From: Paraspadella gotoi
Taxonomy: Eukaryota; Animalia; Chaetognatha
Length of the DNA: 64,000 nucleotides
Direction: 5' to 3'
Assembly: GCA_051294375.1 (NCBI GenBank)
Contig: CM119264.1
Span: 17,733,157-17,797,156, forward strand
The notes beneath the pieces are model-generated. The model saw only the letters and a list, made by a program, of their open reading frames with translations. It did not search any database and was not told where the DNA came from. Positions 17,901-32,900 of the stretch are shown here, one piece after another; position 1 is the stretch's first letter; every line of letters begins with the position of its first letter. The translations under genes were made by a program, and so were the position numbers.

Positions 17901-20900
17901 ATACTTGTATTCAATTACTTGTATTCAAAAGAATGCTATGTTAGCGTCTTGTCTTAAAAAGTGTAAAAATTTCAAGTTTGATGACTTATTGTCGCTTATT
18001 AATATTATAGTACTGCATAATGATCAATTACTTTTTTTATCGTCGCAATCGTTTTGCGTTTGCGACATATCAAAATTTTTCGTGAATCCAGATTTTTCTT
18101 ATGCGATTGTGACGATCCTTATGCTTTTAAGATTTTTTTTTATTAATATATATTCTAGGCTTACGATATCTACCAAACCTTCACAATAGCCTCCCTTTTC
18201 ATTCGAATTGAATGAATTCATTAACTTGTCTTAAGAACCCTTTCTCAGTCTTATAATATTTTAATATGAATAATTTGAAATATGTTTTATCAGGACGATC
18301 CGGAGGCAAGTGATAAGTTTGTTCGACTTAATCGAGCCTACGAAGTTTTGAAGGATGAGGATCTTAGAAGGAAATACGACCAATTTGGTGAAGAGGGTTT
18401 GGACGAGAACAATCAGGTAAAAATGCAACGTTAAAATTTTACTTTCACCAATTTAAAAAAAAATATTACTCTAATTACTCTAACCCTAAACCCTTTTAAC
18501 ACTAACCACCCCTAACCTTAAACCCCCCTAACCTTAAACCCCCCCCCTAATCCCGGTCGGCGAAAGTAAAATTAACCCAATATGGCTCTTTCCTTTTGTA
18601 TCATAATTCTCGCTTTGCCAACACAAAGGGACAGTGAATGGAACACAATGCGTTGGGATGGTGCGTTCCCCCTCTCAGTCAATTGGGTTGGCTGAACGAT
18701 GGTGTTTGTGAGGCAGAGCATAGGGCATTGTCGTTGTGTACCATCAGAAAGGTTGCATGTTCGATAGTAGGGTTCACCATTTATGGCAACAGCCGGGTGC
18801 CTGTGATGCCCATTGGGATGGGGCATCTCACTTGCTTTGGGAGTTTCCGACCTTCAGTGACGCTTCCTGTCACTGGCTCGGTTACCCTAGGACGGTCTTC
18901 CTTGCCAACGCAGAAGGAAGTTGTTAGGACTGGATGGAACGCAACACTTGGGATGGTGCGTTCCCCCTCTGAGCCAATGGGAATGGCTGAACGATGGTGA
19001 TCGAACTCGTGATTTTAAGATTCGCGGTCGCGCAGGTTATCATTTTATCTCTCTTTTTCTCTTCCCCTCATTCTTTTTAGTCGGATCTGCTTATTAGCAG
19101 ATCCCGACTCTATAATTGACTTTGTTGGTCCATCGGTCCGCCCCCTCAATCTTGTCGGGCATTCATTTATATCATGTCAGAACATCGAATTATGATAATC
19201 TATGTAAAAAAAGCGATGTCCATACATCTGTGTCTGTCTGTCTCTCACCTTAGCAAAAAACACCAATTACTCGTGATTGGATGATGGATTGTAATGAAAT
19301 TTGGGTAGGGTAGGGAAGTGTGTGATTGAGCTGGATATGAAGTTTCGATGGAATCGTCCCAAGTGGAAATGAGTTTAAATGGAAAAAACAACAAAATATA
19401 TTTTACTATTTGAGCACCAATTATTCATGCGTGGATGGGGCAATTGACCTGAAATTTTGTATGTGGGTAAGAAAGTGTGTGATTAAGCTGGAAATCAAGT
19501 TTCGATGGAATCGTTTAAGTGGAAATGAATGGAATGAATTTAAATGGAAAAAACAAAAAACCTGTTTTACTAATTGAATAAGCTTCTTTTACTTTTTATA
19601 TTAAATATAAATGCAAGATGTATTAATTAATCAATAATTAATTAATCAGTCAATCAATCAAGCAATTTATTTATCTATTAATTAATTATTCAATTAATTA
19701 ATAATTATTCAATCAAGTCAATCATTATCTGCATTGTCGTCGTCCCCATCATCGTCGTTATTGCTTTTGTCTTGGTCAGTAACGAAAAGACCTAAATTTA
19801 ACTTGAATTAATTAATTAATTAATTAATTACCGATAATGATCGTGGGCAGATCCGACATTGTTTGCTCAAACTTGTTTTTTTCTATCTCTTTATCACTCA
19901 CATATTTATTCTTTCAATATCTTTAAATAAATTCATTCAATTTAATTCAGTTTATACTTTTTAATTTATTTACCCAATGCAATATTTTTCCCTGTGTATC
20001 ATGTTCCTTTCCTATTCTTTCTCGTTTTCTCTTTGTTATTTTTTAACTCCTTTTTATTTCTCTCCCTTGTCTTTCTCTCATTTTCTCCTTTTGCTCTTAC
20101 GTTTTGTTTCGTTTCCTTGTTTTTTTTTTTTTTTTATTTATTCATTTTTTTATTTATTTATTACTATTCAATTGTTTTTCCCTTAATTCTCTCTTTCGAT
20201 ATTTTATTATTTTTTGAATATGTGTATCGAATCATTAATATTTTTATTTTTTTTTTTATATATTAAGCCAAGTTTGTTATTCTTAAATCATTATAAACTT
20301 TTTCAGATAAATTTAATTGTACATGCATTATTGTTGTTCAATAGGGGCGAAATTATGAAAACTGGCAATATTATAATCAAGAATTTGGCCTTTATGATGA
20401 CGATCCTGAAATTATCACTCTCTCTCGTTCAGACTTCGACCCTTCTGTCACTTATTCAGGTTTGTACGAAATGTTTAGCCAGTTCCCCCTAAAATTGTAT
20501 CTGCTCGAGTCTTACCTAGTTCCTAAATAATTGTAATTTTCAGAGGACGTATGGTTCATCAATTTCTATTCTCCCCGCTGCTCTCATTGTCACACTTTGG
20601 CTCCGGCGTGGCGGGAAATGGCCAAGCAACTCGACGGGGTCATCCGGATTGGCGCCGTCAACTGTGCGGATGAGCGCCAATTATGTCAGATGCAAGGCGT
20701 TCATGGCTACCCGACGCTCATCATCTATCCAGACGTAAGATTTTTAAACATTTATCTCATTTATTCATACATATTTTTTCTGTGTTTTTATCGTCTGTTG
20801 TTGGATTTTTCATCGCTCCGAAATAAATCATTCGTAAAGGCTAAAGTTTTTTTCATACACTAATTTTTTTATGTGACCACTGACCATATTGAAATTCAAG

Positions 20901-29900: not shown

Positions 29901-32900
29901 TTGAGTTAATACTTCGTAGATGAGTGCTTAGCCATAAGATGCTAGTTTGTGGATACTTAATACTTTTGTAGTATTTGGTTACACAAACCAAATGAAGCAG
30001 TTTTGTTACAATTATTTTATAGTAATTGTCTCGATACTACGATATGGCTGTGAAGTTAGACTTTCGTTGTAAAGATTGTAGCCATTAATAATGGAATTCG
30101 TAAGATCTTTAGCTGGCATCGATGGGAAAGCATCAGAAACCTTAGAGAAAGTTTTGGTTACCCTGACATTTATAATATTTTCAAAATTAGTCATGTATGA
30201 TTCATGAAATGTTTAACTTTGACGAAAAATAAAGTTTTGTCTTATTTCTATGAAAATATAGAAATGATCTCGTAGCTTAGTTTTCCTTCTGTTTTTATTT
30301 GTTTGGTTTATTTTGTTGCTGATGTATGCTACTGTATCATTATTGATATGAAATAAAATTCTCATATGAAAATTCTTACGCATAAGAAATAGTGGTGCAA
30401 CTCCTTGAATTTGCCAGTTTTTGTTTACCAATAACTTACCAAAAATGCATGATCTCTGCACTCGATATCGATCTCGTGCAATGTTTCAATGTGATCATTT
30501 ACGAATGTAACTGGAACAATCAGAATATTTTTTTTATTTTTTTGTATTAGTCCAGCAATTGTGTCTTTGGTTGTTGGTCCTAACCATCGTACCGGTCCAA
30601 CCTAAATGTGAATTTTTAAATATTTTAACGAGTTGTTTTACAATCCACATACTAGTATAACTTTACCTTGGATTGCCAAACCAGCCGATAGGGAAAACGA
30701 TATTCTAAGCTTTTCATTATAGAATTTACTGTAGAGGAAACTTCAACTGGATACGGATCCCCCCTGTCATGTAAAATAGTTGACCAAAGTATTGACTATG
30801 ATTTATTAAGTCTATATTCCAAAAACTTAGCATTCTTTGAAAAAACGTTAATCAAATTTGTCCTAAAGGTAGTGCTTTTATTTCACAACAACGGCCACAT
30901 TAAATTCCCCTCTAAAAATCTATGAAATTACCTATTTATAATTGACAAAGGAAGAGAATGTGCGCTGAACAAAATGACGAGTTGGTTTTTAATCTTTGAG
31001 GGTATATGAACAAGTTGTTCGTTAATAGTATCAACAAAGGCTTTGATTAACATAGGATGAGAACCCCATCGGTCTATCACCGACCAATGTATACGGTTTC
31101 TGAAAATAAAAATTATCATTATAAATATTGAAAGTAATGTAACAATATTACTTTGTATTACCTTTCAGAAATGTATCTGAAAATATTATTTATGCTTGAG
31201 CCTGTGGTTGGGCAACTGTAATGGGGAAACTGAGGAAATAGCACAGCTCTTTTTATCCCATCACTTTCCATTTCCTTTATGGCATTCGTATAAAATGGTT
31301 CCGCATATTTAAAGCCAATATAAAACTTATGTGGAGCACTCTCTGGACTCAATTTGTCGAGGACTTTGATTATTCCTAATAATTAAAGTAAATGAAATAG
31401 ATTTGTAATAATATCCTTAACCATTTTATAATTTTCAAAATTATATTTTTATAATTTTTATTAAAGATTTAGTTACGTTATTAAAAGTTAGACAAAAATT
31501 ATTAGAAGAAGTTTGAATTTGTTTACAACAACGATTTTATTGGTGACAAAAATTATAAAATTATTCAACCATCCAGTATCACGAACTTTAGTCCCCGGCT
31601 ACACTAAACGCTTTGAACTGTATTTTAATCAACTCCTGTCGTAGAATTCTTGATTTCGCTTACCTTCTCCTTGAAGTGTCGTTATTTTTTTAATAGGAGA
31701 TCCACCGCCAATAAGCTTGTACTTCTCTTGAATTTTTGAAGTCCTTTGCTTAGCAATCCAGCCACTTAACTGTTTTTGTCCCGGTAAAAACATAACTTCG
31801 CGATCTTCAAAAAGTCTGATTTTAAATAATTAAAATCTCGGTTCTCTTAGTGATATATCTAATTTTTGCACTATCTCTAAAAATATAGTACGCACTGAAA
31901 TTATTACCTCCTTAAAAACGGTTGTACTTGATCTAAAGTTTCCGGACCTCCGGTATTTGTCATCAAAATTCCTGTTTTGGGCTTTTGGTAGTTTTGAACT
32001 GTTAGATTGCGTCTTGGTTTTCTGGAATGGAGTATAAAATTTTTTAGTTGCGCCGCAAGTACTCGCGGAGCAACTCTATCACTTTTCGGTCGGTCGGTAT
32101 GTTTGTCCGTCGGTCTGTTCCACTTCCGTTAAAAATTATATAATTTGCTTATAGTTGGTTGTTCATTTGTTAAGACAGAAAAAACCTAAAATCTAAGGGA
32201 CTGTTAGAGCTGCCTTTAGGAATTTCTAAAACTATAAAGAATAAAAGAAGGAATTTTGATGTTGTGCATGTCATAAATAAATAAGAAATTTTTTTTTTTT
32301 TGTCATATACGTGAAAATAAAATCACTGCGGTGCAACACATTGGAATTACCGTTCTTGTTTAAATCGCTTTAAGTCATAATAGCAACAGCCTCAGTGCAA
32401 CTTACTTCATTACTACATGCGGGCTCAAAATGCGTTTTATGAAAATCATGTTCACTTTTTGGTAGTCATCAAAATTCAAAAGGTTTGGCGAAACGAGAGA
32501 GTGAAACTTGATAGCGAATGGCAAATCCTTGAACAAAATCCGGAGCAAGGTAATGATGTCACTTGCCCGCATAAACTCGGGATCCTTCCCAACGGATTAT
32601 CTTTGGGTGATTGGCAACAGATCACCGATCATGAAACAATAACAAACCTGAGAGAGGTCTTTCGGTTGAAATATAGCTCTGTTAGTAGCCGGTATATTTC
32701 TTTTCATGGTCCAAGATAGTATACTGACTCCTGAGATAGATATAGGCTGATGTCAAATATTTGCTATCAATTTGTTGATTGTTACAATTTCGTTTTACCA
32801 CTTTTACACATATATATTTATTATTTACGTAAATTATAACCTCACTTCAGCTTCGTTAACTACAAAATCTATTTTAATTCATTTTTAGAAACTGAAATAC

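What the first reader, a model, noticed from the sequence alone, without database searches (positions are those of the whole stretch)
20735..32888. Three-level nested ('matryoshka') genes: WNK inside ferrochelatase inside DNAJC10
Seen: the DNAJC10 exons flanking intron 20735-32888 join in frame. All nine ferrochelatase exons (32449 to 22456, minus) lie inside that intron. FECH exons 7 and 8 join in phase 0 ([13 protein letters not shown]) across intron 22835-30439, which holds the complete WNK CDS (25607-29062, plus). Known: single-level nesting is common in animals, but nesting of three conserved, normally unlinked genes is rare. Inference: the +/-/+ layout implies overlapping sense/antisense transcription and possible mutual regulation of ER quality control, heme synthesis and ion/osmotic signalling genes.
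Basis: partly seen in the sequence, partly recalled or inferred. Interest (0 to 1): 0.9.

Follow-up and report, generated by a model that had tools for sequence, protein, structure and literature searches.

The report
Gene inside gene inside gene
In this animal genome a single-exon WNK kinase gene lies inside an intron of the heme enzyme gene ferrochelatase, which lies inside an intron of the ER chaperone gene DNAJC10; a transcript contig shows the inner intron spliced out, but such double nesting is already reported in flies and comb jellies and is likely a tolerated accident rather than a regulatory device.

Summary
The three-level nest is real. DNAJC10 (20 exons, +, 788 aa) has a 12,154-nt intron holding all nine coding exons of ferrochelatase (-, 421 aa), whose 7,605-nt intron 7 holds a stop-free 1,151-aa WNK frame (+). 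One transcript-type contig joins FECH exon 7 to exon 8 across WNK. FECH intron 7 sits where human FECH has an intron. WNK lacks four kinase-domain introns seen in other WNK loci, and an unnamed relative also has one 914-aa open frame, so the intron-poor state looks old rather than a fresh retrocopy. Likely history: two separate insertions, order unknown, each gene with its own promoter. Mutual regulation is untested, and fly data point to interference rather than co-regulation. New member of a known kind; interest 0.33.

The parts
17438..40352 (+). DNAJC10 (ERdj5) coding span, 20 exons, 788 aa: J domain, four CxxC thioredoxin motifs, C-terminal HDEL; outer host
   Evidence: model; DnaJ, Thioredoxin; 74-76% to five relatives over residues 2-788
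20544..20734 (+). DNAJC10 exon 4 (most of thioredoxin domain 1)
   Evidence: matches ERdj5 chain 3apo 134-194
20735..32888 (+). DNAJC10 intron 4, 12,154 nt, GT..AG, phase 0; holds FECH and WNK
32889..33057 (+). DNAJC10 exon 5
   Evidence: residue 2 matches 3apo 201
30440..32449 (-). FECH coding exons 1-7 (32449-32406, 32021-31908, 31815-31664, 31375-31162, 31099-30932, 30763-30667, 30601-30440)
   Evidence: human FECH matches; introns 4, 5, 6 seen spliced in X7 and intron 4 in X5
22835..30439 (-). FECH intron 7, 7,605 nt, GT..AG, phase 0; same position as human c.1077/1078; holds WNK; its acceptor scores lowest of the 27 introns modelled
   Evidence: spliced junction in one X5 contig
22456..22834 (-). 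FECH exons 8 (22834-22672, with the CxxCxxxxC motif) and 9 (22607-22456)
25607..29062 (+). WNK kinase, single coding exon, 1,151 aa: kinase 84-341, OSR1_C 368-429, CCTL2 499-560, two RFx[V/I] motifs
29098..30357 (+). Four AATAAA hexamers after the WNK stop (29098, 29228, 30228, 30352): candidate WNK 3' ends, all inside DNAJC10 intron 4 on the same strand; use not shown
   Evidence: contig depth falls to 0-1 after 30367 in X5 and X7, but the 37 nt before it are shared with other loci
21564..22316 (.). Dispersed repeat (83-97% to a copy at 33964-34562) between DNAJC10 exon 4 and the FECH 3' end; no sign that it carried the genes
   Evidence: families D6, D8, D12, D14

Best explanation
Three intact genes are nested +/-/+, and FECH splices out the intron that holds WNK; DNAJC10 is predicted to splice out the whole 12-kb block, and the nest likely arose by two separate insertions that were tolerated, each gene likely keeping its own promoter. 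WNK likely lost its introns through reverse-transcribed mRNA early in this lineage and likely entered an old FECH intron as a compact unit; FECH, which carries eight introns, likely entered the DNAJC10 intron by a DNA-level move. The order is not resolved. Opposite strands at each level would keep the inner gene's splice and poly(A) signals hidden from its direct host; the remaining conflict would be DNAJC10 polymerase reading through WNK's same-strand promoter and poly(A) sites. Shown: anatomy, intact frames, FECH junction, WNK sequence present in transcript-type runs. Inferred: DNAJC10 junction, promoters, history, neutrality.
For: Gene models with 27 of 27 GT..AG introns and no internal stops. 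FECH junction in an X5 contig; X5 and X7 show spliced joints and zero depth in three bins inside FECH intron 5 and one inside intron 4, so they behave as RNA. Exon 8 carries three Fe-S cysteines matching human 403, 406, 411 (ligand role recalled), so the halves need each other. Both DNAJC10 halves are nearest to the same five relatives (84-88% and 71-74%; all 43 other rows 59-71% and 37-48%). X5-X9 hold 0.67-0.77 of the words of 24000-33900 and everything but the WNK frame gives at most 0.647, so WNK sequence is in those runs. Host intron 7 is shared with human. Introns at WNK residues 114, 173, 247 and 299 occur in other genomic WNK loci (L003, L005, L011, L012, L069, L079) and are absent here. 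Published fly data favour mutational input and interference over co-regulation.
Against: The FECH junction rests on one contig in one run. No read evidence for the DNAJC10 junction, for strand, or for any start site. No genome and no relative's DNA around these genes was found (0 of 80 loci hold FECH or DNAJC10), so unnested ancestors, an intron-bearing parent WNK and the insertion order are unseen. Only 7 of 80 fetched WNK-like loci show an interruption by script (L003 makes 8 by eye); that set favours uninterrupted matches and may hold transcripts, but it weakens 'intronless is unusual'. Three human FECH introns are absent here, so this lineage turns introns over and WNK may have lost them in place. 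All three genes are conserved, whereas fly nested genes tend to be narrowly expressed and fast-evolving.
Confidence: 0.66

Rival explanations
1. The nest is a working regulatory unit: WNK or FECH transcription throttles full-length DNAJC10 by polymerase collision or by premature polyadenylation at WNK's same-strand poly(A) sites, and selection keeps the coupling.
For: Four AATAAA sites on the DNAJC10 strand inside its intron; FECH ATG only 440 nt from DNAJC10 exon 5; nested transcription triggers host intronic polyadenylation at mouse H13/Mcts2 (PMC13309782, abstract).
Against: No expression data here; no known pathway link among the three genes was found (listing only); fly nested pairs are less co-expressed than neighbours. 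Interference may occur without being selected.
Confidence: 0.13
2. WNK has no promoter of its own and is cut out of the DNAJC10 precursor by spliced-leader trans-splicing, like a downstream operon gene.
For: Same strand as DNAJC10; four co-oriented genes at 2.9-13.9 kb lie 130-300 nt apart and 4 of 7 start codons checked have an acceptor scoring 7 or more within 30 nt upstream.
Against: WNK's best acceptor within 100 nt of its ATG scores only 4.1; 21% of random non-coding windows reach 7; word shares fit a WNK transcript starting about 1 kb or more upstream, near a GC/CpG-rich patch at 24600-24800; no leader was seen.
Confidence: 0.08
3. WNK did not move as a processed copy; it lost introns in place and the nest formed by local inversions or exon relocation among three neighbouring genes.
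For: In Drosophila 75% of ancestral unnested pairs were on the same chromosome at a median 10,770 bp (PMC5174743, passages); relatives' gene calls P0002, P0123 and P0124 all start at the first Met after the residue-247 intron position, which suggests they keep one intron (inference).
Against: An inversion alone does not put a whole gene in an intron while leaving the host's exons in order; two hosts stay colinear here.
Confidence: 0.1
4. The outer level is an assembly error or two DNAJC10 paralog halves.
Against: The halves abut with no missing or repeated residue, have the same nearest relatives, and all other 18 introns are canonical; a mis-join would need two coordinated errors.
Confidence: 0.03

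Closest known systems
Doubly nested intronic genes of the ctenophore Hormiphora californensis (PMC8527503, passages seen)
   Same: A gene in an intron of a gene in an intron, in an animal; the paper finds nesting commoner in smaller animal genomes.
   Different: There 484 cases were counted genome-wide with Iso-Seq; here one case, of three named conserved genes, with genome-wide frequency unknown.
'Russian doll-like' nested genes of Drosophila (PMC5174743, passages seen; it cites Assis et al. 2008, which was not held)
   Same: Three levels; opposite-strand bias; an intronless inner gene.
   Different: Fly inner genes are typically young, small and narrowly expressed (PMC3814207, passages); here the middle gene has nine exons and encodes the last heme-synthesis enzyme, and the inner gene is 3.5 kb and old.
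Mouse H13/Mcts2 host/nested pair (PMC13309782, abstract seen)
   Same: A nested gene whose transcription could end the host transcript early; WNK is same-strand to DNAJC10.
   Different: One level only, imprinted and experimentally shown; nothing of the kind is shown here.
Russian doll genes of Oxytricha (PMC5940158, search listing only)
   Same: The name and the nested geometry.
   Different: Resolved by programmed DNA rearrangement in the germline nucleus, not by RNA splicing.

Membership tests
Doubly nested (Russian-doll) protein-coding genes | Inner gene wholly inside one intron of the middle gene, and that intron is spliced | tested here: met
   WNK frame 25607-29062 inside 22835-30439; junction in one X5 contig
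Doubly nested (Russian-doll) protein-coding genes | Middle gene's coding exons wholly inside one intron of the outer gene | tested here: met
   22456-32449 inside 20735-32888; outer exons colinear with homologs
Doubly nested (Russian-doll) protein-coding genes | Outer intron spliced in RNA; full transcripts (UTRs) within the intron bounds | not tested
DNAJC10 / ERdj5 | J domain with HPD, four CxxC thioredoxin motifs, ER retention end | tested here: met
   HPD, CSHC, CPPC, CGPC, CGHC, HDEL in the translation
Animal (mitochondrial) ferrochelatase | His263, Glu343 and the Fe-S cysteines 196, 403, 406, 411 (human numbers; roles recalled) | tested here: met
   Gapless matches to 7ctc place H, E and the four C at these positions
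WNK kinases | Lysine in the glycine-rich loop and cysteine in place of the usual beta-3 lysine (recalled); OSR1_C and CCTL2 domains; RFxV motifs | tested here: met
   the 120 best hits listed carry WNK names or no specific name
Retrogene (processed copy) | Loss of ancestral introns | tested here: met
   Four kinase-domain introns seen in other loci are absent; human WNK1 has 28 exons (PMC3365125, passages)
Retrogene (processed copy) | Intron-bearing parent in the same genome, or ancestral locus elsewhere | not testable with these tools
   No genome held
Retrogene (processed copy) | Poly(A) remnant and target-site duplication | tested here: inconclusive
   No direct repeat of 30 nt or more flanks WNK among the 20 largest of 21 families; shorter ones not searched; an old copy would have lost them

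The most novel reading that the evidence does not exclude
Three old, broadly needed genes have been held in one +/-/+ block across this whole lineage because the block couples them: WNK transcription cuts DNAJC10 transcripts short at its same-strand poly(A) sites while FECH transcription runs against both, giving a three-way switch built from gene nesting alone.
Probability: 0.1. Interest if true: 0.65.

Novelty: new member of a known kind. Interest (0 to 1): 0.33.

Why it matters
It is a clean, RNA-supported example of double nesting made of three conserved, nameable genes, in a region whose median intron is 150 nt (27 introns). It warns that automatic annotation would split DNAJC10 and FECH here. 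It is a ready test locus for how three overlapping housekeeping transcripts coexist: if they do so without interference, the rule that nested genes survive by narrowing their expression has an exception; if WNK truncates DNAJC10, it extends the H13/Mcts2 mechanism to an invertebrate three-gene block.

Tried and rejected
No whole genome is held. No run was on record as RNA in the run search; RNA nature of X5 and X7 is read from their spliced joints. X10 and X11 gave 0 records at 80% likeness, which proves nothing. A processed FECH copy in DNA as source of the joints was rejected because intron bins have zero depth in both runs. Scan of metagenome contigs with the lineage-specific WNK tail: 593 pattern matches, none confirmed; scan with the kinase domain: 80 loci kept of 278, none with FECH or DNAJC10. 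A fourth nested gene: nine small frames (eight in FECH intron 7, one antisense over FECH exon 1) gave no Pfam match above cut-off and a codon score that does not separate them from short true exons; unresolved but unsupported. A missing micro-exon at the DNAJC10 junction was rejected: the longer loop appears only in the chordate rows and two unnamed rows of 48. A poly(A)-tailed X7 contig ending at 30367 was not taken as the WNK end, since several contigs from other loci share those 37 nt. Position of the human WNK1 intron near residue 385 not found in print (0 papers). Assis et al. 2008 not held. Protein atlas did not answer. Earlier scan findings: none in two look-ups. A rough DNAJC10 tree puts the organism with five unnamed relatives outside the sampled arthropods, molluscs, annelid, rotifer, cnidarians and chordates; its phylum was not determined. 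DNAJC10 intron positions were not compared with other species.
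Full report
Observation. I rebuilt the three genes from the window. DNAJC10 runs 17438-40352 on the plus strand in 20 exons that join to 788 aa without an internal stop, with HPD, four CxxC motifs and a terminal HDEL; its intron 4 is 20735-32888, 12,154 nt, phase 0. Ferrochelatase runs 32449-22456 on the minus strand in nine coding exons, 421 aa; its intron 7 is 30439-22835, 7,605 nt, phase 0. WNK is one frame, 25607-29062, 1,151 aa, with kinase, OSR1_C and CCTL2 domains above Pfam cut-offs. 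All 27 introns are GT..AG; their median is 150 nt and the longest of the other 25 is 2,035 nt.

The inner junction. FECH exon 7 matches human FECH residues 305-352 and exon 8 residue 2 matches residue 361, so the halves abut with nothing missing. I laid four runs on 30330-31420. In X5 one 678-nt contig of depth 5.4 lies on 30440-30757 with no differences, and the 30 loose letters shown before 30440 equal window 22805-22834: exon 7 is joined to exon 8 across WNK. That contig still holds the 65-nt intron 6. X7 shows introns 4, 5 and 6 spliced, but its contig stops at 30476; X5 also shows intron 4 spliced. Both runs have zero depth in bins inside introns 4 and 5, so they behave as RNA although the tool guesses X7 as DNA. 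X10 and X11, from other organisms, gave no records. The junction therefore rests on one contig in one run; one loose end and four pieces were not shown by the tool.

The outer junction. Exon 4 matches mouse ERdj5 chain 3apo 134-194 and exon 5 residue 2 matches 201, three residues short; in an alignment of 48 of the 120 listed homologs the longer loop appears only in chordate rows and two unnamed rows, and five unnamed relatives at 74-76% identity read straight across the junction as the window does. Both halves are nearest to the same five proteins, 84-88% and 71-74%, against 59-71% and 37-48% for the other 43 rows. Two paralog halves or a mis-join are therefore unlikely.

WNK expression. Runs X5-X9 hold 0.67-0.77 of the sampled words of 24000-33900. 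Everything in that stretch except the WNK frame gives at most 0.647, and host exons with a generous UTR give 0.153, so WNK sequence is present in those runs. Only X5 and X7 were laid and shown to behave as RNA. Shares of 0.72-0.77 fit a transcript from about 24300-24600 to about 30370; this is an indirect estimate with no strand. X1-X4 (0.94-0.95) may be the source sample and are not independent.

History. Human FECH has an intron at c.1077/1078 (PMC11391836, passages), codon 359|360, exactly where intron 7 lies, so the host intron is old and WNK entered it. Three other human introns listed in that paper (c.314, c.598, c.804) fall inside window exons 3, 4 and 5, so this lineage has turned FECH introns over. 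Human WNK1 has 28 exons (PMC3365125, passages). Genomic WNK-like loci from metagenomes show introns at window residues 114 (L005, L012), 173 (L005, L069, L079), 247 (L069, L079) and 299 (L003, L005, L011, L079); the window has none. Against over-reading this: only 7 of the 80 loci kept show an interruption by script, though the 80 were the best-scoring of 278 and may include transcripts. An unnamed protein, P0002, is colinear with window WNK from residue 252 to the end (68% in the kinase C-lobe, 33% in the tail) as one 914-aa call on contigs of 4,377 and 8,281 nt; it, P0123 and P0124 start at the first Met after the residue-247 position, which suggests relatives keep that one intron (inference). 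The intron-poor state is thus likely old. I read the nest as two insertions, WNK as a compact, likely mRNA-derived unit and FECH by a DNA-level move; no relative's locus was found to order them.

How it works. Shown: FECH polymerase crosses WNK antisense and the intron is removed, although its acceptor is the weakest of the 27 by a score trained on these same introns. Inferred: DNAJC10 polymerase crosses FECH antisense and WNK sense, passing four AATAAA hexamers after the WNK stop; failure to splice would end the frame at 20863 inside thioredoxin domain 1. WNK has no good acceptor near its ATG (4.1), which favours its own promoter over trans-splicing from the DNAJC10 precursor.

Known kind. 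Hormiphora has 2,357 nested genes of which 484 are doubly nested, and smaller animal genomes carry more (PMC8527503, passages); a glass sponge has 2,432 nested genes (PMC10282587, passages); Drosophila has a handful of Russian-doll triples and 71-73% of pairs are on opposite strands (PMC5174743, passages). Fly nested pairs are less co-expressed than neighbours and inner genes tend to be narrow and fast-evolving (PMC3814207, passages); mammalian pairs show interference signs without expression divergence (PMC8467205, abstract); H13/Mcts2 shows host truncation by a nested gene (PMC13309782, abstract). A search for three of the four terms DNAJC10, ferrochelatase, WNK, nested listed one unrelated review, and searches listed no paper on this triple; subscription papers and supplements were not seen.

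Verdict. Observation confirmed, inner level with RNA support; rarity overstated; regulation untested and not favoured. New member of a known kind, interest 0.33. The boldest reading left open, a selected three-way transcriptional coupling kept across the lineage, I put at 0.1.

Noticed in passing
window 2932-13910 (+): Derlin-like, WD40 (WRAP73-like; name recalled), an unknown gene and a D2HGDH-like gene (name recalled; FAD-oxidase_C) lie head to tail about 130-300 nt apart, and some start codons here and at 17438 have an acceptor just upstream: operon-like, possibly trans-spliced. Scores are not far above background.
   Followed up: partly
window 9189-10019 (+): Single-exon 276-aa frame with a hydrophobic start, cysteine-rich middle, Ser/Thr-rich stalk and hydrophobic end, like a surface-anchored protein; no Pfam match; atlas did not answer.
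   Followed up: partly
window 15254-16624: Element with long terminal inverted repeats (51 and 87 nt, 99-100%) around arrays containing telomere-like hexamers; looks like a non-autonomous DNA transposon.
   Followed up: no
window 22608-22671 (-): If FECH intron 8 is retained the frame ends after six more residues, still past the Fe-S cysteines; exon 9 adds a 50-residue tail mostly absent from human FECH.
   Followed up: no
window 30602-30666 (-): The X5 contig has the 7.6-kb intron removed while the neighbouring 65-nt intron 6 is still present.
   Followed up: no
window 30330-30367: A 37-nt stretch with AATAAA is shared by several contigs from other loci, one ending in poly(A): possibly a repeated 3'-end element.
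   Followed up: partly
window 24577-24846: GC- and CpG-rich patch 0.8-1 kb upstream of WNK with several overlapping 50-76-aa frames; candidate promoter or 5' UTR; no Pfam match above cut-off.
   Followed up: partly
window 32384-32719 (+): 111-codon open frame antisense over FECH exon 1 and its upstream region; only weak Pfam matches.
   Followed up: partly
window 30440-32021 (-): FECH introns 2, 3 and 5 map to human codons 91, 142 and 272, and three documented human introns are missing: marked intron turnover in this lineage.
   Followed up: partly
window 42000-45050 (-) and 47500-50650 (+): A glutathione S-transferase-like gene (name from reading, no family hit) and a pyruvate kinase gene (PK hit) with GC-rich exons and long microsatellites in its introns.
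   Followed up: no
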